A stretch of 64,000 bases of DNA, from positions 108,390 through 172,389 of the IMG/VR virus record IMGVR_UViG_3300029319_007985. One strand, given 5' to 3'. Every line of letters starts with the position of its first letter. Within the stretch, counting starts at the first letter, position 1. Shown here piece after piece: positions 12,268 through 24,189 of this stretch. The notes below the pieces were generated by a model. It worked only from the letters and a program-made list of their open reading frames with translations, did no database searches and was not told where the DNA came from. The translations under genes were made by a program, and so were the position numbers. This stretch comes from a virus.

Positions 12268-12548
12268 TGTATAATTTACTCAAAGAATTTTGGGTAAACA
12301 GTTATAACACAGATAAGACAGCATTTTATCTTGAGATTATATCTGTGGCATTTACCATTGCAGGATCAGTGATATTGACTTTCACTTCTCCTTATCCTAT
12401 AATGGAGTATGTGTTTCCTGTCTATCTGGTAGGATCTTGCACACTGGCCATTGCATGTTGGAGAAGAAGAATAATTTGGACACTGGTTTTGGCAAGTTGG
12501 TTTACTATAATGAATGTGATTGGAAACATTAAAGTATTTTTATTATGA
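12267..12548 (+). CDS. Small membrane protein (about 3 TM helices)
   Basis: Three hydrophobic stretches. Confidence 0.6.
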   Translation: MYNLLKEFWVNSYNTDKTAFYLEIISVAFTIAGSVILTFTSPYPIMEYVFPVYLVGSCTLAIACWRRRIIWTLVLASWFTIMNVIGNIKVFLL

Positions 12549-15205
12549 GTTATATAGATGCATTCTATAAAAGAGATGAGGACAAAGTCCGTGTAGTTGA
12601 AAGAGACTCCAAAGGACAAAGAAAGTTTGTAGACTACGACGCAAGATATACATTTTACTATCCTGACAGCAGAGGAAAACACAGAAGTATATTTGGAGAA
12701 CAACTGCAAAAAGTACAATGCTCCACTTTCAAGCAATTTATAAAAGAACAAAAAATAAGATCAAATAAAAAATTATACGAACAAGATATAAATCCAGTCT
12801 TTAGGTGCCTGGAAGAAAATTATCTCGGTAAGGAAACTCCAAAATTAAATGTTGTATTTTTCGATATTGAAGTTGACTTCGACCCACAGCGTGGATATTC
12901 TACTACAGATGATCCATTTATGCCAATAACAGCAATAACTTGTTATCTAAGTTGGAGCGATCAATTAGTAACACTTGCGGTTCCGCCAAAGACACTAAAC
13001 ATGTCAGGAGCAAAAATGGCGACAGAACGTTTTGAAAACGTCATGTTGTTTGAAAAAGAAGCGGACATGTTAGACGCATTTTTAACACTGATAGATGATG
13101 CGGACATTTTGAGTGGATGGAACTCGGAAGGTTATGATATTCCATACACTGTTGGTAGGATACAAAAAACATTGAGTAGCGACGACACAAGAAGACTATG
13201 CTTCTGGGGTGAAAAGCCAAAGCGTAGGACATTTGAGAAATATGGCAGAGAGCAACTAAGTTATGACCTGATAGGAAGAGTGCATTTGGATCTGCTAGAA
13301 CTTTACAGAAAATACACATATGAAGAAAGACATTCGTACAGACTAGATGCAATAGGTGAACACGAACTTGGCGAAAAAAAGACAGTGTATGAAGGATCTT
13401 TGGACAACCTATATAATAATGACTTTGGTTTGTTTATAGAATACAATAGACAAGACTGTGCTCTACTTGCCAAACTGGAAAAAAAATTAAAATTTATTGA
13501 ACTTGCAAACGAAATAGCACACCAAAATACCGTGTTATTACAGACTACGATGGGGGCAGTCGCAGTGACTGAACAAGCAATCGTGAATGAAGCACACAGA
13601 AGAGGCATGATTGTGCCTGGAAGAGTCAAACGTGCCGAAGGAGAATCTGTCACGGCGGCTGGTGCATACGTGGCCACGCCCAAGAAAGGTTTACATAATT
13701 GGATAGGTAGTTGCGATATCAACAGTCTATATCCAAGTGTAATTAGAGCATTGAACATGGGACCAGAATCAATTGTTGGACAGATACGCCCTGTTATCAC
13801 GTCTGCGGAAATAAATCGTGCAAGGCACCAGAAAAAGTCATTTGCGGCGGCTTGGGATAATCAATTTGGCACTTGGGAATATCAAGCAGTAATGAAACAA
13901 GATAAAGGCACTGAAATAATAGTTGACTGGGAAGATGGCACAAGTGTGAAAATGAGTGCAGGGCAACTACACGAACTTGTGTTTGAGAGTAATAATCAAT
14001 GGATGTTGAGTGCAAACGGAACTATTTTCACGTATGAATTTGAAGCAATCATCCCTGGACTACTTAAAAGATGGTATGCTGAAAGAAAAGAAATGCAACG
14101 TAAGATGCATGAGTGCGGTGATAATGAAATAGAAAAAGAGTTTTGGGACAAAAGGCAACTAGTCAAAAAAATTAATTTAAACAGTTTGTATGGAGCAATC
14201 TTAAATCCAGGTTGCAGATTCTTCGACATAAGGATTGGACAGTCAGTAACACTAACTGGTAGATGTATCACAAAACACATGGGCGCAAAAGTAAATGAAG
14301 TAATAACTGGCGACTATGATCATAAAGGTGATTCAGTAATTTACGGCGACACAGATTCAGTTTACTTTAGTGCTTACAAACCGCTACAGAATGAAATAAC
14401 GTCTGGAAAAGTGCCATGGCAAAAAGAAAACATAATAAATTTATATGATAAAATTGCTGACGAAGTCAATAACTCCTTTACACAATACATGACCAAAGCA
14501 TTTCACTGTCCAAAAACTAGAGGCGAGGTAATAAAAGCAGGACGTGAATTAGTTGCTAGTAAAGGATTGTTTATTACAAAGAAAAGATATGCAGTGTTGT
14601 ACTTCGACAAGGAGGGAGAACGTCAAGATATAGCCGGCTCGCCAGGAAAAATGAAGGCAATGGGACTTGATCTTAAAAGATCTGACACTCCTGTTTTTGT
14701 ACAAAACTTTCTAAGTGAGTTGTTGATGATGGTTTTGACTAACAAAACTGAAGAAGAAGTCCTAAAAAGAATATCTGAATTTAGGTCAGAGTTCAAAGCA
14801 AGGCCAGGTTGGGAAAAAGGATCACCAAAAAGAGCAAACAACGTTACAGAATATCTTGCAAAAGAAACTAAACAAGGGAGAGCCAACATGCCAGGGCACG
14901 TAAGAGCAAGTATAAACTGGAATAGATGTAGAGAAATGTACAGCGACAAATATTCTCTTCCTATAACGGATGGAGCAAAAGTGATTGTGTGTAAATTGAA
15001 AAACAATCCATTAGGCTACACTTCAATAGCCTATCCAGTTGACGAGATGAGAATACCCGACTGGTTCAAAGAAATGCCATTTGATGCTGAAGCAATGGAA
15101 TCTACAATACTAGATCAAAAAATAGACAATCTTATCGGGGTGCTTAATTGGGACGTACAAAGCACAGAGACCACAAACACATTCAACAAACTATTCCAAT
15201 TTTAA
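12545..15205 (+). CDS. Family B DNA polymerase
   Basis: Exonuclease motifs FDIEV, GWNSEGYD and YNRQD; polymerase motifs DINSLYPS, KINLNSLYG and YGDTDS. Confidence 0.97.
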   Translation: MSYIDAFYKRDEDKVRVVERDSKGQRKFVDYDARYTFYYPDSRGKHRSIFGEQLQKVQCSTFKQFIKEQKIRSNKKLYEQDINPVFRCLEENYLGKETPKLNVVFFDIEVDFDPQRGYSTTDDPFMPITAITCYLSWSDQLVTLAVPPKTLNMSGAKMATERFENVMLFEKEADMLDAFLTLIDDADILSGWNSEGYDIPYTVGRIQKTLSSDDTRRLCFWGEKPKRRTFEKYGREQLSYDLIGRVHLDLLELYRKYTYEERHSYRLDAIGEHELGEKKTVYEGSLDNLYNNDFGLFIEYNRQDCALLAKLEKKLKFIELANEIAHQNTVLLQTTMGAVAVTEQAIVNEAHRRGMIVPGRVKRAEGESVTAAGAYVATPKKGLHNWIGSCDINSLYPSVIRALNMGPESIVGQIRPVITSAEINRARHQKKSFAAAWDNQFGTWEYQAVMKQDKGTEIIVDWEDGTSVKMSAGQLHELVFESNNQWMLSANGTIFTYEFEAIIPGLLKRWYAERKEMQRKMHECGDNEIEKEFWDKRQLVKKINLNSLYGAILNPGCRFFDIRIGQSVTLTGRCITKHMGAKVNEVITGDYDHKGDSVIYGDTDSVYFSAYKPLQNEITSGKVPWQKENIINLYDKIADEVNNSFTQYMTKAFHCPKTRGEVIKAGRELVASKGLFITKKRYAVLYFDKEGERQDIAGSPGKMKAMGLDLKRSDTPVFVQNFLSELLMMVLTNKTEEEVLKRISEFRSEFKARPGWEKGSPKRANNVTEYLAKETKQGRANMPGHVRASINWNRCREMYSDKYSLPITDGAKVIVCKLKNNPLGYTSIAYPVDEMRIPDWFKEMPFDAEAMESTILDQKIDNLIGVLNWDVQSTETTNTFNKLFQF

Positions 15206-15212
15206 ATACAAG

Positions 15213-16040
15213 ATGCTTAGTATAGAAGAGATAAAACTAACAATATCTGCTCTCAAAAAATTACGAGATACAAAAAATTGGGAAGATTGCATTGACAGTT
15301 ACTTAAAAAAATTAGAAGAACTGGCCAGACGTGTTGACGCATACAACGACGATCAAATCCAACAATTGGATAAGACAAAAGATTGGTATCAGCAAGAGTT
15401 AGATTGGACACATAATAGAAAAAAACACTTGTACGACGAGTTGCTTGACAAGATGATCGAATCAAAAATATTTCAGTTTGCGAAAGCAGGCAAAACAGCC
15501 AACATGCAAAACTCTTTGGAAATAGGACCAGGGTATGGTAGGTACAGTAAAATGTTTTTGTCTTGGAGGCTGAACTATTTTCTAGACTTATTGCCAACAT
15601 GTGAAACTAAAATTAAGAAAAAATTTCACCCACCTCATCACAAATATATTAAATTTTATACGACACTACGTTGTGACTGTTCTCCAATACCAACCAACAG
15701 TTGTAATTTTGTTTTTTCCTGGAACACCTTTACTTTCTTTACACAAAAACACATCAATGAATACCTAGGAGACATGAAAAGGGTAATGTTACCAGGCGGA
15801 TATGCTCTTATACATTATGCCAACTGTGAATATGATAAAGACTTGCACGAGGCAAAGCGTGGTTATTGGAACTTCAATACTAAAACAGACATGCACAAAA
15901 TGATCCAATCACATGGTTATGACATCATAGAAAGCGATCAATTTAAACAAGGCGCCAATTATGTTATCTTCAAAAAACTTGGTAATCTAAATCCTGTGCT
16001 TTATCAAGTTTTAGAAATGCCGCTAGATAAAGAAAAATAA
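15213..16040 (+). CDS. Class I SAM-dependent methyltransferase
   Basis: LEIGPGYG, NFVFSWNTF and RVMLPGGY. Confidence 0.75.
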   Translation: MLSIEEIKLTISALKKLRDTKNWEDCIDSYLKKLEELARRVDAYNDDQIQQLDKTKDWYQQELDWTHNRKKHLYDELLDKMIESKIFQFAKAGKTANMQNSLEIGPGYGRYSKMFLSWRLNYFLDLLPTCETKIKKKFHPPHHKYIKFYTTLRCDCSPIPTNSCNFVFSWNTFTFFTQKHINEYLGDMKRVMLPGGYALIHYANCEYDKDLHEAKRGYWNFNTKTDMHKMIQSHGYDIIESDQFKQGANYVIFKKLGNLNPVLYQVLEMPLDKEK

Positions 16041-16048
16041 TTTAACAG

Positions 16049-16077
16049 TTGATTCTGATCTAAATATTTTATATAAT
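16049..16077 (+). promoter_or_regulatory. sigma70-type promoter TTGATT-17-TATAAT with nested TAAATA
   Basis: Direct match upstream of ATG 16087. Confidence 0.55.
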
Positions 16078-16086
16078 AATTGTATT

Positions 16087-16824
16087 ATGATAGATATCTT
16101 GAAAGACATTGTCAAGCACACGCATGGACTTGGATTCCTCGATCTTGTTAAAATTACTGGTACCAGTGATTCAACTGCTATTGATTCAATGGCAGAGGAC
16201 AGATCAGTTATCCTGCAAGGATCTTTTCACAAACCACAATCAGGTATGATAGGAACTTTTGGTATGCCTCAGTTGAATAAACTAGATATACATTTAAAAT
16301 GTCCGGAATACAAAGATAAGGCAAACATATCCGTAATGACTGGAACCAGAAATGGTGCAGAAACACCAACAGGTATACACTTTGAAAATGAAAAAGGTGA
16401 TTTCAAGAATGATTATAGATTTATGAATGCCGAGATTATTAACGAAAAACTTAAAACTGTAAAATTTAAAGGTGTTAAGTGGGACGTTGAGATCGAGCCT
16501 ACAGTGGCAAGTGTACAAAGATTCAACTTTCAATCAGTAGCAAACACAGAACACAATTCTTTTGTTGTAAGAACAGAGGATGGTAACCTGATATTCACTT
16601 TTGGTGATCAATCATCACATGGTGGTGAATTTGTATTTGCAAAAGACGTGAAAGGAACTCTTAATAAAGGATGGAGTTGGCCGGTAGCACAGGTATTACA
16701 GATATTGAAACTTTCTGATTCTGCAAAAGTAACACTACATTTTTCCAATGAAGGAGCAATGCAGGTTACAGTAGACTCAGGACTAGGCAAATATCAGTAT
16801 ATTATTCCAGCGCAGGCGCAGTAA
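16087..16824 (+). CDS. Probable sliding clamp (PCNA/gp45-like fold)
   Basis: 245 aa with a two-domain alpha/beta pattern ending YQYIIPA; two genes downstream of the polymerase; fold is inferred. Confidence 0.5.
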   Translation: MIDILKDIVKHTHGLGFLDLVKITGTSDSTAIDSMAEDRSVILQGSFHKPQSGMIGTFGMPQLNKLDIHLKCPEYKDKANISVMTGTRNGAETPTGIHFENEKGDFKNDYRFMNAEIINEKLKTVKFKGVKWDVEIEPTVASVQRFNFQSVANTEHNSFVVRTEDGNLIFTFGDQSSHGGEFVFAKDVKGTLNKGWSWPVAQVLQILKLSDSAKVTLHFSNEGAMQVTVDSGLGKYQYIIPAQAQ

Positions 16825-18266
16825 TGACAGATAAAAGGCAAGAACATTTAGGAGAGTACAGCAGAGACTTTGCGGTGTTCTTGCCTGCTATTTCAAACTT
16901 TTACAATACTTTCATTAGCAAACAAAGGGTTACTGAGGGCACCCACATACCAGCAGAAAGAATACCAAAAGGATTGGACAGAGGAGTCGAAGGATTAAAC
17001 TTTATCAATCCTGAACAAGGATATTTCACATATCCAACAGCATTATATTCGGCAGGACACGCCTGTTTAGATATGGATAAAACAGCAGACAGAGATTCAA
17101 TGTGTGTCAATCGAGACAGAAAGTTTTCAACGATTATTGGTGACTCAGGTGGATATCAGATAGGAAAAGGTGTTATTAAATTTGATTGGAAAGATTTTGA
17201 AGGAAATAAAGCAAACAAAGTAAGGTCAGATATTTTAAATTGGTTGGAACTTACAAGCGATTGGGCAATGACCTTAGACGTGCCAACTTGGGCGGCAGAC
17301 GATTTGAATTCACCAAAAACAGGACTAAAAAGTTTTCAAGATACATTGGACGGCACAATTTACAATAATAAGTTTTTCCAAAAAAATAGACTAGGACAGA
17401 CCAAGTTATTAAACGTGTTACAAGGTGATGATTGGGAAACAGCACAAATTTGGTATGACAAAGTAAAAGATTTTGAATTTGAAGGTTGGGCAATGGGCGG
17501 AATCAACATGTGTGACATGGAGGTTATGTTAAAAAGGCTAATCATAATGAGAGATGAAAAGAAACTGGATGGTAAAGACTGGATGCACGTACTAGGCACG
17601 TCACAACTTGATTGGGCATGTTTCTTAACACAGGTACAAAGACAGGTTCGAAAGAATATCAATGACAAATTTACTATTAGTTTTGATAGTGCGTCAGCAT
17701 TTTTATCAACCGCAAATGGACTTGTGTACACGCACAACTTGTTTACTCCAAAAAGATGGAGTTACATAATGGAGAAGGCACCAGATGACAAGAGACTAAA
17801 AGGATCAACTATTCCGTTTCCTTTCAAGTCAGCAATAGGAGAAAGACTAATACTTGGAGATGTTTGTGCTTATGGTGAAGGGGATCTAAACAAAAACAAT
17901 AAAGAGGGCAAAACAAGTTGGGATAGTTTTAGTTACTGCTTGATGATGGCCCATAATGTTTACAACCATATAAGAGCGGTGCAAATTGCAAATGACTTGA
18001 ATGACATTGAGATGATCAAACATAAACCACAGGTAAAACACTGGAGAAAGACTAAGGATTCGGACAACACAGATGAACCAAGTGACTTTGTTCCACGAAA
18101 TATTTTATATTTCAACACACTTGTGGAAGAAGTGTTCACAAGTGAAAAGCCAATGGATGTAATAAACAATGCCAGTAGTTTCCTTGCTGACATACGTGGC
18201 ACTAGATGGGCAAGGGCCACAGGCGGTGGAAAAGGCAAAAACAACTTTAGCAGTCTATTCGAATAG
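16824..18266 (+). CDS. dpdA: DpdA-like 7-deazaguanine DNA transglycosylase (TGT fold)
   Basis: GDSGGYQ, MTLDVP, NVLQG, GWAMGG, HVLGTS, SFDSAS and AHN; folE and queE nearby. Confidence 0.75.
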   Translation: MTDKRQEHLGEYSRDFAVFLPAISNFYNTFISKQRVTEGTHIPAERIPKGLDRGVEGLNFINPEQGYFTYPTALYSAGHACLDMDKTADRDSMCVNRDRKFSTIIGDSGGYQIGKGVIKFDWKDFEGNKANKVRSDILNWLELTSDWAMTLDVPTWAADDLNSPKTGLKSFQDTLDGTIYNNKFFQKNRLGQTKLLNVLQGDDWETAQIWYDKVKDFEFEGWAMGGINMCDMEVMLKRLIIMRDEKKLDGKDWMHVLGTSQLDWACFLTQVQRQVRKNINDKFTISFDSASAFLSTANGLVYTHNLFTPKRWSYIMEKAPDDKRLKGSTIPFPFKSAIGERLILGDVCAYGEGDLNKNNKEGKTSWDSFSYCLMMAHNVYNHIRAVQIANDLNDIEMIKHKPQVKHWRKTKDSDNTDEPSDFVPRNILYFNTLVEEVFTSEKPMDVINNASSFLADIRGTRWARATGGGKGKNNFSSLFE

Positions 18267-18523: not shown

Positions 18524-19069
18524 ATGTTAAGAGATTATTCTACAGGCTTCAAAGAAGATGTGAATGTTTTTTCAGGTATTGAAATAGAACACACTCCGGC
18601 ATATGGTAAACAAACACTTTTCCTTGCACGTAACGATCTTACTTTTGATCAAATACAAAGTTTGGCCGTGGCCGCTGATGCAGAAGCAATATACTATGGA
18701 GCAAATAGGTCCTATATGCACAGTCACGCGATGCAGTTGGCTCAAATACATCAATTGTTAGACAGAGGATACTGGGTAACTGTTGATTACCCATTTGAAT
18801 TACATCAATTGGTTGCCAAGAAGTTTAGCACGTGCTGGAGAAAGGAAAGATTTATTCCATTCTGCTCTATCATATTTCCACACACAGAAGAAGATGACAA
18901 TTTGTGTTTCAAAGTAGACGATGTAGATTTTAACAAAACAAATCCTGGTGTTTGGAGCATGACTATGAAAGATTTCAAAGACAAAGCAGGATTTACTAAA
19001 TGGGAAGAATACAAACAAGATGAACCAATAACAGAGGACAAAATATGGCCAGCACCACAGAAAGCGTAA
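18524..19069 (+). CDS. Hypothetical protein in the deazaguanine locus
   Basis: GIEIEHTPAYGKQTLF and KVDDVDFNKTNPGVW motifs; coupled to the T-fold gene. Confidence 0.6.
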   Translation: MLRDYSTGFKEDVNVFSGIEIEHTPAYGKQTLFLARNDLTFDQIQSLAVAADAEAIYYGANRSYMHSHAMQLAQIHQLLDRGYWVTVDYPFELHQLVAKKFSTCWRKERFIPFCSIIFPHTEEDDNLCFKVDDVDFNKTNPGVWSMTMKDFKDKAGFTKWEEYKQDEPITEDKIWPAPQKA

Positions 19070-19509
19070 TTGATCAGATGTATAACATACCTGAGCAACA
19101 ACAAGAACAAGCATTGAAAGAAAAAGCCGGAAAGGCGGCAAAAATGATATGGGTGACCTTTCAAAAAGAAGGTATGCACAAATACCCTGCGGCACTAGAT
19201 GATCCAAAATTAAAGACAGGAGATGAGTACGATGTTAGTTTCTTAGGATATCCACACAGACACATATTTCATTTCAAAGTGGCAATAGAAGTATTCCACG
19301 ATGACAGAGACATTGAATTTATACAGTTTAAAAGATGGCTCCTTAATTTGTACAAGGACGGCACTATACAAAGCGACTTTAAAAGTTGTGAAATGATGAG
19401 TGATGACCTATACATTGCAATCACAAAAAAATATCCAGGTAGACGCATAGAAATAGATGTATCAGAAGATGGTGAAAACGGATCACACGCAGTATATGAA
19501 AGAACTTAA
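19045..19509 (+). CDS. QueD-like T-fold protein with LxxxHRHxF motif (DpdL-like putative CDG decarboxylase)
   Basis: EGMH...LGYPHRHIF...SCE...VSEDGENG; lacks the canonical QueD CxxxHGH. Confidence 0.65.
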   Translation: MASTTESVIDQMYNIPEQQQEQALKEKAGKAAKMIWVTFQKEGMHKYPAALDDPKLKTGDEYDVSFLGYPHRHIFHFKVAIEVFHDDRDIEFIQFKRWLLNLYKDGTIQSDFKSCEMMSDDLYIAITKKYPGRRIEIDVSEDGENGSHAVYERT

Positions 19510-20170: not shown

Positions 20171-21319
20171 ATGTCAAAAAGACTCCTAGATAAAAACTTT
20201 TGTGTTATACCATGGACAGGCTTTGAATTAGAGCCTAATGGGCATGTAAGGAACTGTATTATCAGTAAGGACAAAATAGGCAATATCTACAGAAACAACA
20301 TCCAAGATATTTTACAAAGTAATACAAAAATAAAAGAAGAAATGCTGAATGGAAAATATCCTTCTAGTTGTGATGGATGTTTTCTACAAGAAAAACACAG
20401 GGCAAAAGATTTTGAATCGATTAGCAGTCGTTTGTATTATGCGAAAGAGATAGGACCGTCTATATCAACAACACTATTTGATAGCAAAAACAATTTTGAT
20501 TTGAAACACGTTGATCTACGTTGGTCCAATGCGTGTAACCAAGCATGTGTTTACTGTCATCCTGACTACAGTAGCAAATGGGCCACTGAACTTAATAAAA
20601 AAATTCCACATGATCAAGAACAAATCCAGCAGGTAAAAGAATATGTTTTTAAAAATGTAAAAAATTTAAAAAACGTTTACCTAGCAGGAGGTGAGCCAAT
20701 GTTAATGAAACCTAATCAAGAGTTTCTTGAACTTCTTTATAAAGAAAATCCAAACGTAAACTTAAGGATCAACACCAACCTCAGCAAAACAAATACTAGA
20801 ATTTTTGAACAATTGTGTAAGTTTGAAAACGTGCATTGGACCGTTAGTATAGAAACTATAGAAGAAGAATATGAATATGTCAGGTATCATGGAGACTGGA
20901 CAGCATTTTTAGAAAATTTGAAAGTGATAAAAAAATTACCACATAAAATAAGTTTCAATATGCTTTACTTCATTTTGAATTACAGAAGTCTCTTTGGTTG
21001 CGTAAATTACCTACAGAATTTAGGATTTCATAACAACAGTTTTGTGATTGGTCCATTGTTTACTCCGCCGCATTTGAATATTTTGAATTTACCTAAACAA
21101 ATTTTAAACCAACTTAGAGAATTACTCAAAGAGAAAATTAATGAAAAACCAGGCTTCCTACTTGAAAACAGTTACCAAAATCTACTTCAATATTTGACTG
21201 AAACCAAGTTCTATGCTAATATAGATGTAACAAAGAGAGAATTAGAAAAAATGGATAGAAGAAGAAATTTGGACAGCAAAAAAGTGTTTCCTAAACTGTA
21301 TCAAGAGGTGCTTAATTAA
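20171..21319 (+). CDS. N-terminal twitch/SPASM-domain radical SAM protein
   Basis: FCVIPW...NC...CDGC; CNQACVYC; AGGEP; TAAATA at 20161. Confidence 0.85.
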   Translation: MSKRLLDKNFCVIPWTGFELEPNGHVRNCIISKDKIGNIYRNNIQDILQSNTKIKEEMLNGKYPSSCDGCFLQEKHRAKDFESISSRLYYAKEIGPSISTTLFDSKNNFDLKHVDLRWSNACNQACVYCHPDYSSKWATELNKKIPHDQEQIQQVKEYVFKNVKNLKNVYLAGGEPMLMKPNQEFLELLYKENPNVNLRINTNLSKTNTRIFEQLCKFENVHWTVSIETIEEEYEYVRYHGDWTAFLENLKVIKKLPHKISFNMLYFILNYRSLFGCVNYLQNLGFHNNSFVIGPLFTPPHLNILNLPKQILNQLRELLKEKINEKPGFLLENSYQNLLQYLTETKFYANIDVTKRELEKMDRRRNLDSKKVFPKLYQEVLN

Positions 21320-22485
21320 TGAAAATATTCTACATGGGCCTTGAACCATACGAAGGCCGATATACTCTGCAGTTGACAGATTGGACTGAACGTGCTTTTA
21401 AAAAAGCAGGCGTAGAATATGTGATAGTGCCTGGCACAACAATAGATGATAGTAAAGCAATAGTTACAGGACAAGTTTTAGATGCACATGGTAGAAGTTA
21501 TTTTGGAATGAGCCAAATGATGAATTTGGTTCAAATGATGAAAGCAGGAGAAGTCACGTCCAAGGACATAATATTTTTTGAAGACATGTTTCAGCCTGGA
21601 ATGGAGGCTCTGCCTTATATACTTCAGCAAAGTCCAGAAAAATATAGACCTGCAATATACCTAAGATGTTTAGCACAATCAATTGACCCAGATGATTTTG
21701 TGCATGTATGGGGTATGAGCAAATGGATGAGTCTCTATGAAGAGATGTGCAACGAGATTCCAAATGTCAATATACTTGCCAGTAACGAAGAGATGGTTGC
21801 CAATATGAGAATAGCCAATTGGAAGGCACCTATATACAATATTTCAGGACTAAGTTTTGGAAAAGAAGAAGTGCAATCAAGAGTAGAACAAAAACCATTC
21901 ATTGAAAGGAAACAAAGAGTCGTATTTGGAGCAAGATGGGATCAAGAAAAACAGCCACAATTTTTTATGGACTTGGTGCAGGCATATAAAAAGAAACATC
22001 CAGACACAGAATTTGCAATATGTTCAGGTGGTCCATTAAGGTCCAATAACAAATACTATGTTGATGAAGCAAGATACCTTGCTAAAGAAGGCATACTAAC
22101 AATACATGAAAACTTGAAAAAAGATGAGTACTATAGCATACTTGCTGACTCAAGAGTTTTATTCAATTGCGCTTTACAGGATTGGACTTCTAACACAGTG
22201 AGTGAAGCGGATGCCTTAGGCGCGAATGTATTGTTTCCGGCATACAGGTCTTTCCCGGAAGTTTTTGCAAATGACGAAACAAGAATGTACATACCATGGT
22301 CACAAAAGGACGCAATTAAAAAACTAGAAACACTAATGAGCAAACCATCCCCTAGTATGGGTCAAATATCAGATTGGACAGATGGCACAATCGATAGAAT
22401 GTTAGACATCATGACAGGCAAGGGCGAACAATGGAGAAGAGATGGATCACACTACAGAACACCAGTATCCGAAAAAAAATATTAA
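21319..22485 (+). CDS. GT-B (GT4-like) glycosyltransferase
   Basis: ARWDQEKQP, ENLKKDEYY, QDWTSNTVSEA and SFPE. Confidence 0.75.
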   Translation: MKIFYMGLEPYEGRYTLQLTDWTERAFKKAGVEYVIVPGTTIDDSKAIVTGQVLDAHGRSYFGMSQMMNLVQMMKAGEVTSKDIIFFEDMFQPGMEALPYILQQSPEKYRPAIYLRCLAQSIDPDDFVHVWGMSKWMSLYEEMCNEIPNVNILASNEEMVANMRIANWKAPIYNISGLSFGKEEVQSRVEQKPFIERKQRVVFGARWDQEKQPQFFMDLVQAYKKKHPDTEFAICSGGPLRSNNKYYVDEARYLAKEGILTIHENLKKDEYYSILADSRVLFNCALQDWTSNTVSEADALGANVLFPAYRSFPEVFANDETRMYIPWSQKDAIKKLETLMSKPSPSMGQISDWTDGTIDRMLDIMTGKGEQWRRDGSHYRTPVSEKKY

Positions 22486-23479: not shown

Positions 23480-24189
23480 TGGACGAATTAAAAGACAGTT
23501 GGGCACCAGTAGGACCGGTAAGCGAAAAAATCAAAAAAAGAATAAAAGAAGCAAAAGCAAGATATCATGCCAATGACAATATTTCCGAATTTATAAAAGA
23601 AGGCGAACTTGAACAACTGCAAAATGAGGTCCAAGACAAAATGAAATCATTGCTGAGCAGTCTTGTTATTGACACTGAAAATGATCATAACACACAAGAC
23701 ACTGCAAAACGTGTTGCCAAGATGTGGATAAAGGAAGTATTCGGGGGAAGATATAATCCATTCCCGAGAGTTACAAGTTTTCCAAACATGGGATACAAAA
23801 GCATGTACACCTCTGGACCAATATCTATTCGGTCAACATGTGCCCACCACTTCCAAAATATTGTTGGAAATGCTTGGATAGGGATTATTCCAAACGGTGA
23901 GGTAATTGGTTTGAGTAAGTTCAATAGAATAGTGCACCATATAGCAGAACGTCCACAGATTCAAGAAGAAATGACAACTCAGATTGCAGAGGCACTCCAA
24001 GAGTATGCACATACAAAAAACATAGCGGTGGTTGTAAAAGCAGAACATCACTGTATGACACACAGAGGCGTGAGAGAGCATGAAAGCGACATGACAACAG
24101 CAATAATGTTAGGCGCTTTCAAAGAAGACCCTGCAACCAGAGATGAATTTTACAAGATTTGCATGAGCATGAAAGGTCATGGTGGATAA
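23479..24189 (+). CDS. folE: GTP cyclohydrolase I
   Basis: STCAHH, IGLSKFNR, RPQIQE and HHCMTHRGV. Confidence 0.93.
   Translation: MDELKDSWAPVGPVSEKIKKRIKEAKARYHANDNISEFIKEGELEQLQNEVQDKMKSLLSSLVIDTENDHNTQDTAKRVAKMWIKEVFGGRYNPFPRVTSFPNMGYKSMYTSGPISIRSTCAHHFQNIVGNAWIGIIPNGEVIGLSKFNRIVHHIAERPQIQEEMTTQIAEALQEYAHTKNIAVVVKAEHHCMTHRGVREHESDMTTAIMLGAFKEDPATRDEFYKICMSMKGHGG

What the first reader, a model, noticed from the sequence alone, without database searches (positions are those of the whole stretch)
15173..18266. DNA polymerase and DpdA share a C-terminal clamp-binding-like motif and flank the putative clamp gene: replication-coupled base exchange
Seen: the polymerase ends TNTFNKLFQF and the DpdA-like protein ends, after a flexible GGGKGK linker, in KNNFSSLFE (shared NxFxxLF). 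dpdA is translationally coupled (TAATG) to the 245-aa putative clamp gene. Established: T4-type gp43, gp55 and gp33 bind the gp45 clamp through a C-terminal hydrophobic peptide (SLDFLF-like). Inference: DpdA rides the clamp and modifies nascent DNA at the fork, which would also restrict modification to phage DNA.
Basis: partly seen in the sequence, partly recalled or inferred. Interest (0 to 1): 0.8.

Follow-up and report, generated by a model that had tools for sequence, protein, structure and literature searches.

The report
Clamp-docking tail on phage DNA transglycosylase
A giant ocean phage's enzyme of the kind that swaps guanine in DNA for a 7-deazaguanine base ends, after a floppy linker, in the same short peptide as the phage's DNA polymerase. 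The enzyme therefore probably hooks onto the phage's sliding clamp, although binding has not been shown.

Summary
The family-B polymerase (12545-15205) ends TNTFNKLFQF. The next-but-one gene (16087-16824) folds confidently as a PCNA/gp45-type sliding clamp. It overlaps (TAATG) a 480-aa gene (16824-18266) with a tRNA-guanine-transglycosylase (TGT) fold, which ends GGGKGK-NNFSSLFE.

In about 150 related viral contigs the order polymerase, clamp, transglycosylase is kept, and both proteins carry the peptide. The two peptides change together: polymerase ..FFEF goes with enzyme ..FFEF, NNTDLFDW with NNNDLFGW, and LFDFT with LFDFT. The linker is predicted disordered.

The polymerase is collinear with RB69 gp43, whose C-terminal peptide is the known clamp ligand. 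Relatives and this genome link the enzyme to 7-deazaguanine synthesis genes (FolE, QueD, a QueE-like radical SAM enzyme, a DpdL-like protein).

The best reading is that the enzyme is a clamp client, so base exchange is tied to replication. Binding itself is not shown; the one co-folding job gave no verdict. The LF-to-FF switch is a single evolutionary event.

No paper found links DpdA to a clamp. Published work calls the modification post-replicative. This scan's earlier notes report the same idea on other DNA (at least 37 genomes), so it is a recurring family trait and not unique to this window.

The parts
12545..15205 (+). Family-B (T4/RB69 gp43-like) DNA polymerase, 886 aa.
   Evidence: It matches Pfam DNA_pol_B and the exonuclease domain, and phrog_262 at 1e-195. 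It is collinear with RB69 gp43: 43 residues are left after the last aligned thumb residue in both proteins.
15173..15202 (+). Polymerase C-terminal peptide TNTFNKLFQF, the putative clamp-binding tail.
   Evidence: Seen. About 150 related contigs keep it as NTF..LF.F..FFEF and similar forms. Phosso, Atu_ph07, GAP32, PA5oct and Vibrio phage 2.275.O also keep a tail of this kind.
15213..16040 (+). SAM-methyltransferase-like ORF inserted between the polymerase and the clamp gene. It has no tail motif.
   Evidence: It matches Pfam Methyltransf_11/25/23 weakly. The ~830-bp gap between polymerase and clamp is found only in the closest relatives; relatives at about 60% identity have a gap of about 60 bp.
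16087..16824 (+). Sliding clamp of the PCNA/gp45 type, 245 aa, with two domains.
   Evidence: The AF2 model has pLDDT 93.2 and pTM 0.90. The Foldseek top 50 are all PCNA, with TM 0.65-0.73 and E down to 3e-12. An exhaustive VIA search gave sliding clamps and related processivity factors as the top 38 hits (PCNA Z 18.3, T4 gp45 Z 16.2), and then the scores fall below 9. The gene follows the polymerase in all relatives.
16824..18266 (+). TGT-fold, DpdA-like DNA transglycosylase, 480 aa. It has DSGGYQ at residues 107-112 and an invariant D288.
   Evidence: The AF2 model has pLDDT 93.5. The Foldseek top 50 are all TGT. VIA gave Z about 19 with about 307 residues aligned. In BFVD, the named hits among the top eight are the Achromobacter phage Motura TGT and a Vibrio phage nt-1 protein. 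Invariant residues come from alignment A1.
18207..18245 (+). Disordered linker, residues 462-474, which includes GGGKGK.
   Evidence: pLDDT is below 50 for residues 462-474 in an otherwise confident model.
18240..18263 (+). C-terminal peptide NNFSSLFE, which copies the polymerase tail motif N-x-F-x-x-L-F.
   Evidence: Seen. It aligns across the family; L454 and F479 are nearly invariant in A2. It co-varies with the polymerase tail.
19045..19509 (+). T-fold protein, DpdL-like (context: 7-deazaguanine pathway).
   Evidence: tblastn hits Cellulophaga phage phiST under CGPG_00067. PMC10516641 proposes that protein as the CDG decarboxylase DpdL.
20171..21319 (+). Radical-SAM enzyme, a QueE-like candidate (context).
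   Evidence: It matches Pfam Radical_SAM at 1e-17 and a weak QueE-like phrog_2076.
23632..24159 (+). GTP cyclohydrolase I, FolE (context).
   Evidence: PF01227 at 3e-50, at G000 132021-132548.

Best explanation
Gene 16824-18266 encodes a TGT-superfamily DNA transglycosylase that works like DpdA, exchanging guanine in DNA for a 7-deazaguanine base. It is built as a client of the phage's own sliding clamp. A folded catalytic body (residues ~1-460) is joined by a disordered Gly/Lys linker to an eight-residue peptide, NNFSSLFE. This peptide copies the C-terminal peptide of the phage's gp43-type DNA polymerase (NTFNKLFQF).

By analogy with T4/RB69, the peptide would dock in the hydrophobic pocket of the PCNA-like clamp encoded just upstream (16087-16824). 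In T4/RB69, gp43, gp33, gp55 and the ligase share such a peptide to bind gp45. Clamps loaded on phage DNA during replication would then hold the enzyme on newly made duplex and let it scan that DNA.

Shown here: the two folds, the shared peptide, the disordered linker, its conservation, its co-variation with the polymerase tail, the synteny, and the link to deazaguanine synthesis genes.

Inferred: that the peptide binds the clamp, that this makes modification replication-coupled, efficient or phage-specific, and which base is inserted. A CDG- or DG-type base is likely, given FolE, QueD, a QueE-like enzyme and a DpdL-like protein with no QueC in the 47%-complete record.
For: (1) Clamp fold: pLDDT 93.2. 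All top Foldseek hits are PCNA. In a search of 48,161 chains, the top 38 hits are sliding clamps and related processivity factors, including T4 gp45 at Z 16.2. A clamp-loader AAA+ gene lies in the same genome.

(2) TGT fold and motifs.

(3) The polymerase is a gp43 homologue, collinear to the end with RB69 gp43. The gp43 C-terminal peptide is the established gp45 ligand. Such peptides also work from internal flexible loops and are interchangeable between clients (PMC2988020; PMC6212786).

(4) The order polymerase, clamp, enzyme is kept in about 150 IMG/VR contigs at 49-88% identity to the query enzyme, and in a contig at 34% identity.

(5) Co-variation. Vibrio phage 2.275.O has NNTDLFDW and NNNDLFGW. 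L049 has NTFGSLFSF in both proteins. L104 has LFDFT in both. L124 has VMDNFFEF and VMDTFFEF. L152 has ALDEFFEF and VLDEFFEF. Every one of 22 distinct FF-type polymerase tails goes with FF in the enzyme tail, against 3 of 103 LF-type tails. The own-genome match score is 22.9 against 17.6 for other genomes, and no permutation of 20,000 reached it. The effect persists when permuting only within clades: FF clade p=0.002, mixed clade p=1e-4.

(6) The linker is disordered.

(7) DNA-modification context. FolE, QueD, a QueE-like enzyme and a DpdL-like protein are present here. QueF, YhhQ, QueC and FolE lie next to the Vibrio homologue. QueE lies near the PA5oct homologue. FolE or QueD/QueE lie next to distant homologues. 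PA5oct DNA resists G-containing restriction sites (PMC12191111).
Against: - No binding measurement or supported structural model exists.
- The LF-to-FF switch happened once on the tree, so it counts as one independent pair. The Fisher and global permutation p-values therefore overstate the independence of the data.
- Within the window's own clade the motif is nearly invariant, and fine-scale co-variation is absent (p=0.42).
- Some lineages have a degenerate enzyme motif (..DMWG.., or none in L138).
- Phosso's homologue is not next to the clamp gene and ends only ..VEGLF.
- In most relatives the motif is followed by a 25-40-residue acidic extension with a second conserved motif of unknown partner, so the tail may do more than bind the clamp.
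- The third tail-bearing protein of this genome does not keep its tail in a 353-kb relative.
- The published view is that DpdA acts post-replicatively on duplex DNA (PMC10516641). That is compatible with clamp tethering but does not require it.
Confidence: 0.68

Rival explanations
1. The shared peptide is a real interaction motif, but its common partner is another replisome component, such as the clamp loader, a gp32-like single-strand-binding protein, or the helicase or primase. It would not be the clamp.
For: Nothing here shows which protein the peptide touches. Phosso's homologue sits beside the primase and DnaB-like helicase genes, not the clamp gene. Most homologues carry an extra acidic extension that suggests further partners.
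Against: The polymerase is collinear with RB69 gp43, whose C-terminal peptide binds the clamp (PMC2988020, PMC6212786). The motif type, hydrophobic-x-x-L-F with acidic neighbours, is the T4 LDFLF type. The enzyme gene abuts or overlaps the clamp gene in about 150 contigs.
Confidence: 0.14
2. The tail similarity has no shared function. It reflects chance, a generic hydrophobic C-terminus, or occasional gene conversion between two neighbouring genes.
For: Short hydrophobic ends are common. About 15% of other ORFs in these loci have LF somewhere in their last 60 residues. Several unrelated ORFs in a complete relative end in LF.
Against: The motif is kept from 34% to 100% identity. It is enriched about 8-fold over other windows of the same proteins. 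It always sits after a disordered linker. It tracks the polymerase tail within clades. Neutral gene conversion would not preserve it over this divergence.
Confidence: 0.05
3. The TGT-fold protein is not a DNA transglycosylase. It might modify tRNA or have another substrate, so a clamp tail would serve some other replication-linked role.
For: It has no hit above threshold to Pfam TGT or to any PADLOC Dpd model. It is only weakly related to phiST DpdA3 (hhalign probability 56%). The catalytic nucleophile was not mapped structurally. No chemistry is available for this phage.
Against: It has a TGT fold at Z about 19 and a DSGG[FY]Q motif with invariant Asp residues. It is repeatedly linked to FolE, QueD, QueE, QueC, QueF, YhhQ and DpdL genes. 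Its nearest named viral structures are a phage transglycosylase (Motura) and a protein of Vibrio phage nt-1, the phage in which DpdA2 was defined (PMC6884629). PA5oct carries a modified G (PMC12191111) and was already listed as having a deazaguanine incorporation system (PMC7824862).
Confidence: 0.07

Closest known systems
Clients of the T4/RB69 sliding clamp gp45: gp43 polymerase (EKASLDFLFG), gp33, gp55 and the internal loop of T4 DNA ligase (PMC2988020, PMC6212786)
   Same: One short hydrophobic and acidic peptide is shared by the replicative family-B polymerase and by non-polymerase proteins. It is carried on a flexible linker or loop. The clamp has the two-domain PCNA/gp45 fold, and a clamp-loader gene lies in the same genome.
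   Different: The extra client here is a DNA base-exchange (hypermodification) enzyme, which is not among the known T4 clients. The clamp has no sequence-level match to the gp45 or PCNA Pfam families. Binding is inferred, not measured.
DpdA DNA 7-deazaguanine transglycosylases (bacterial DpdA; phage DpdA1-DpdA4; PMC6884629, PMC10516641, PMC10164549)
   Same: It has the TGT fold and the DSGG[FY]Q substrate motif. It is genetically linked to FolE, QueD, QueE and DpdL. A relative, PA5oct, has restriction-resistant DNA with a modified G.
   Different: It has no sequence-level membership in any named subfamily. It is 480 aa against 259 aa for phiST DpdA3, to which it is only weakly related. It carries a linker plus a polymerase-like tail that phiST DpdA3 lacks and that the DpdA papers read here do not mention. 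The literature describes the insertion as post-replicative and names no replisome link.
Eukaryotic DNMT1-PCNA and other PIP-box maintenance enzymes (from general knowledge)
   Same: A DNA-modifying enzyme is tethered to the replicative clamp by a short linear motif, so that newly made DNA is marked promptly.
   Different: The chemistry differs (base exchange versus methyl transfer), as do the lineage and the motif consensus. This is an analogy only.

Membership tests
PCNA/gp45-type sliding clamp | Two topologically repeated beta-alpha-beta-beta-beta domains in about 230-260 residues | tested here: met
   The model has pLDDT 93.2. PCNA gives TM 0.65-0.73. PCNA gives Z 18.3 and T4 gp45 Z 16.2 over 211-226 residues, and non-clamp chains score below Z 9.
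PCNA/gp45-type sliding clamp | Closed trimeric ring around DNA | tested here: inconclusive
   Three copies were sent in the co-folding job. That job reports only the partner's score and gave no verdict.
PCNA/gp45-type sliding clamp | Encoded together with a family-B polymerase and an RFC/gp44-like loader | tested here: met
   The gene follows the polymerase in all relatives. A DNA_pol3_delta2 AAA+ hit lies at G000 95784-96026.
PCNA/gp45-type sliding clamp | Sequence match to the Pfam gp45 or PCNA families, or to solved clamps | tested here: not met
   There is no Pfam hit. The only PHROG hit is phrog_12062, of unknown function. There is no PDB sequence or profile hit. Membership rests on fold and context only.
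TGT/DpdA superfamily | TGT-type TIM-barrel fold | tested here: met
   The Foldseek top 50 are all TGT at E about 1e-7. VIA gives Z about 19 with about 307 residues aligned.
TGT/DpdA superfamily | DSGG[FY]Q substrate-binding motif with the conserved Asp | tested here: met
   GDSGGYQ lies at residues 106-112. D107, S108 and G110 are invariant in 73 homologues. The motif aligns with TGT ..TDSGGYQ...
TGT/DpdA superfamily | Second catalytic Asp (the nucleophile) | tested here: inconclusive
   D288 (FDSAS) is invariant. Its equivalence to the TGT nucleophile was not mapped on a superposition.
TGT/DpdA superfamily | Pfam PF01702 above the gathering score | tested here: not met
   The window protein has no hit. 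Of 73 homologues, 2 reach E about 0.005.
DpdA (DNA, not tRNA) | Genomic linkage to 7-deazaguanine synthesis genes, and modified DNA | tested here: met
   Linkage is shown. Modified G in PA5oct comes from PMC12191111 only. The chemistry of this phage cannot be tested here.
DpdA3 (phiST CGPG_00065 type) | Recognisable homology and comparable architecture | tested here: not met
   hhalign gives probability 56% over 84 columns. The lengths are 259 aa against 480 aa. phiST has no tail. The BFVD hit to the phiST protein has E=3e-3.
T4-type clamp-client peptide | Short hydrophobic/acidic peptide on a flexible segment, shared with the replicative polymerase's C-terminus | tested here: met
T4-type clamp-client peptide | Physical, motif-dependent binding to the clamp | tested here: inconclusive
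   The only test available was the co-folding job, which returned no verdict.

The most novel reading that the evidence does not exclude
A whole, very abundant family of jumbo-phage DNA transglycosylases works as processive clamp clients. The replicative clamp left on nascent phage DNA carries the base-exchange enzyme along the duplex. This would explain how some phages replace a large share of their guanines, and why modification marks phage DNA and not host DNA. It would be a prokaryotic-virus counterpart of DNMT1-PCNA. The tail-less relatives in integrase-linked elements may use a separate ~600-aa partner with a clamp-like end.
Probability: 0.45. Interest if true: 0.8.

Novelty: new variant of a known kind. 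Interest (0 to 1): 0.68.

Why it matters
DNA hypermodification by 7-deazaguanines is a major phage counter-defence. How DpdA enzymes find and cover a genome is unknown. Published work treats the step as post-replicative and names no link to the replisome.

A clamp-docking tail would give a concrete and easily testable mechanism for coupling base exchange to replication. It would add a new class of enzyme to the sliding-clamp 'toolbelt'. It might also bear on why members of another subfamily, DpdA3, could not be tested in a heterologous E. coli model (PMC10516641), although that is speculation and DpdA3 lacks this tail.

The family is large: 971 clusters at 50% identity, and more than 7,000 close marine sequences. 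PA5oct offers a cultured system for testing.

Tried and rejected
- **Co-folding** of three clamp copies with residues 441-480 of the enzyme (complex prediction) gave no verdict. The scores were 0.36, 0.36 and 0.44, but one unrelated control scored 0.40. It counts neither for nor against binding. Five earlier submissions failed because the machine was busy (include these).
- **Sequence searches** of both proteins against the PDB, Pfam and PADLOC found nothing usable. Only a sub-threshold TGT alignment appeared.
- **LF/FF association:** the independent-pairs test has no power because the change occurred once. I therefore do not rely on the Fisher p-value.
- **Third tail protein:** the 163-aa protein ending QTNFNSLFS has no family hit and no phage hit, and its homologue in a complete relative lacks the LF. 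It is not counted as support.
- **Genome-wide census** in a 353-kb complete relative found no further convincing clients. Two suggestive ends (a DNA methyltransferase ..SSDLFE and a QueD-like protein ..NEDLFA) are unsupported by any conservation test.
- **DpdA3 membership** was tested and rejected.
- **Bacterial DpdA structure:** no solved bacterial DpdA chain appeared among the listed structural matches. This does not exclude relatedness.
- **Vibrio phage nt-1 DpdA2:** BLAST did not reach it, so its tail was not examined.
- **The ~600-aa neighbour of tail-less homologues:** hhalign against the clamp profile gave probability 0.9%. The clamp-like C-end is only a visual resemblance.
Full report
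**Observation.** The window is the last 64 kb of a 172-kb IMG/VR virus record estimated to be 47% complete. Four genes lie on the + strand in a row.
- A family-B DNA polymerase (12545-15205) ends TNTFNKLFQF.
- A methyltransferase-like ORF follows (15213-16040).
- A 245-aa ORF follows (16087-16824).
- A 480-aa ORF (16824-18266) ends GGGKGKNNFSSLFE.

The last two genes overlap as TAATG. In the whole record, only the polymerase, this 480-aa protein and one 163-aa protein outside the window have F..LF in the last 14 residues of a plausible gene.

**What the proteins are.** The 245-aa protein has no Pfam, PDB-sequence or named PHROG match.
- With an alignment of 34 relatives it folds at pLDDT 93.2 and pTM 0.90.
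- Every one of the top 50 Foldseek hits is PCNA, with TM 0.65-0.73.
- In an exhaustive comparison with 48,161 representative chains, the first 38 hits are all sliding clamps or related processivity factors. PCNA scores Z 18.3, T4 gp45 scores Z 16.2, and beta clamps and 9-1-1 score 12-16. Scores then drop below 9.
- The same genome holds a clamp-loader-type AAA+ gene.
- In every cultured relative examined (PA5oct, Vibrio 2.275.O, Phosso, Atu_ph07, GAP32) the homologue directly follows the polymerase.

The 480-aa protein also lacks sequence-level matches.
- It folds at pLDDT 93.5. Its top 50 Foldseek hits are all tRNA-guanine transglycosylases, with Z about 19 over about 307 residues.
- It carries GDSGGYQ at residues 106-112. 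D107, S108, G110 and D288 are invariant in 73 diverse homologues. The motifs align with the TGT motifs.
- Among predicted viral structures, the named hits in the top eight are the transglycosylase of Achromobacter phage Motura and a protein of Vibrio phage nt-1, the phage in which DpdA2 was defined (PMC6884629). phiST DpdA3 is only a distant match.

Context supports a DNA-modifying role.
- This genome encodes FolE, a QueD-type PTPS, a QueE-like radical-SAM enzyme, and a T-fold protein that hits phiST DpdL. No QueC was found in the partial record.
- The Vibrio homologue is followed by QueF, YhhQ, QueC, an amidotransferase and FolE.
- Distant homologues sit next to FolE or to QueD and QueE.
- PA5oct, whose homologue is 40% identical, has DNA that resists enzymes cutting G-containing sites (PMC12191111). 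It was earlier listed as having a deazaguanine incorporation system (PMC7824862).

**The tail.** In the model, residues 462-474 are disordered and the last residues form a short helix. The family is large, with 971 clusters at 50% identity.
- Among the full-length representatives, about half carry a hydrophobic-x-x-[LMIF]-F motif in their last 60 residues. Other windows of the same proteins carry it in 5-7% of cases.
- In an alignment of 17 homologues at 37-53% identity, the motif lines up, and F479 is nearly invariant.
- All but one of 120 close marine homologues keep NNF[SG]SLF.
- In most lineages outside the window's clade, the motif is followed by a 25-40-residue acidic extension with a second conserved element.

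**Co-variation with the polymerase.** Two scans of IMG/VR returned 160 contigs. About 150 of them show polymerase, clamp and enzyme in that order. The two tails resemble each other lineage by lineage:

| Lineage | Polymerase tail | Enzyme tail |
|---|---|---|
| Vibrio phage 2.275.O | NNTDLFDW | NNNDLFGW |
| L049 | NTFGSLFSF | NTFGSLFSF |
| L104 | LFDFT | LFDFT |
| L124 | VMDNFFEF | VMDTFFEF |
| L152 | ALDEFFEF | VLDEFFEF |
| L164 | ..TLFG | ..DLFG |
| L198 (34% identity) | ..STFFEF | ..LSLFEF |

- Over 80 distinct polymerase tails, the best 8-residue match to the enzyme tail of the same genome scores 22.9, against 17.6 for other genomes. None of 20,000 permutations reached that value.
- The signal survives permutation within clades for the FF clade (p=0.002) and for the mixed clade (p=1e-4). 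It does not survive in the window's own clade, where the motif hardly varies (p=0.42).
- The LF/FF contrast looks striking: 22 of 22 against 3 of 103. It traces to a single change on the tree, so I treat it as one event and not as statistics.

**Why the clamp.** The polymerase is a gp43 homologue, collinear with RB69 gp43 to the end. In T4/RB69, the C-terminal peptide of gp43 (EKASLDFLFG in T4) binds a hydrophobic pocket of gp45. The same kind of peptide is used by gp33 and gp55 and, from an internal loop, by the ligase. These peptides are interchangeable and sit on flexible linkers (PMC2988020; PMC6212786). The window's peptide has the same character. The enzyme gene abuts the clamp gene. The simplest reading is that the enzyme is one more clamp client.

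**Limits.**
- Binding was not shown. The single co-folding job returned no verdict and is set aside.
- Some lineages have degenerate motifs.
- Phosso's enzyme is neither clamp-adjacent nor clearly tailed.
- Action 'at the fork' and 'phage-specific marking' are inferences.
- The enzyme is not a sequence-level member of a named DpdA subfamily.

**Novelty.** Full-text searches found no paper connecting DpdA with a sliding clamp. The main DpdA papers describe the insertion as post-replicative and mention no tail. Earlier notes of this scan report the same shared peptide in at least 37 other genomes. They are AI notes, not independent evidence, but they show this is a family-wide trait and not a peculiarity of this window. 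I rate it a new variant of two known kinds (clamp client; DpdA-type transglycosylase). I put the confidence that the tail binds the clamp at about 0.68.

Noticed in passing
G000:C1:15652-16143 (= L005:6653-7144), outside the window: A 163-aa protein of no known family ends QTNFNSLFS, the same motif as the polymerase and the enzyme. Its homologue in a 353-kb relative ends ..NSFEKLRRIR, without the LF. It has no hits in the phage collection.
   Followed up: partly
window 15213-16040: A SAM-methyltransferase-like ORF is inserted between the polymerase and the clamp gene only in the window's closest relatives. Relatives at about 60% identity have the two genes about 60 bp apart.
   Followed up: partly
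Alignment A2, C-terminal columns; for example L049:7963-9594 and L001:5998-7620: Outside the window's clade, most homologues continue past the polymerase-like motif with a 25-40-residue acidic extension. It contains a second conserved element (F/M-x-D...D-D/E-x-L-x-x-L-E). Its partner is unknown, and the window's protein lacks it.
   Followed up: no
window 19045-19509, 20171-21319, 23632-24159; G000 71555-71953: The genome has a DpdL-like T-fold protein (it hits phiST CGPG_00067), a radical-SAM enzyme, FolE and a QueD-type PTPS, but no QueC in the 47%-complete record. This suggests a CDG- or DG-type modification and not preQ0. A glycosyltransferase (21319-22485) sits inside the cluster.
   Followed up: partly
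L195:2553-4397, L201:1702-3507, L200:2-1225, L199:1-663: Tail-less homologues (415-430 aa) lie in integrase- or resolvase-linked elements. They always follow a ~600-aa protein of no known family whose C-terminal strands (..GLLE..h.h....Y..h.P) look like the end of a clamp. hhalign does not support the resemblance (probability 0.9%).
   Followed up: partly
L178:3015-3881 and L183:895-1392 (G003, a 353-kb relative): A DNA methyltransferase ends ..NISSDLFE and a QueD-like PTPS ends ..EWNEDLFA. They could be further clamp clients or chance; conservation was not tested.
   Followed up: no
L001:1-4834 (PA5oct) and L087:2966-5935 (Atu_ph07): The polymerase gene of these relatives is split. In PA5oct a Hef-like homing endonuclease gene splits it, and the C-terminal piece keeps the tail. 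The PA5oct clamp homologue is annotated 'structural protein' from virion mass spectrometry.
   Followed up: no
G000:C1:95784-96026: A clamp-loader-type AAA+ gene (DNA_pol3_delta2 domain, 309-aa frame) lies about 12 kb upstream of the window.
   Followed up: no
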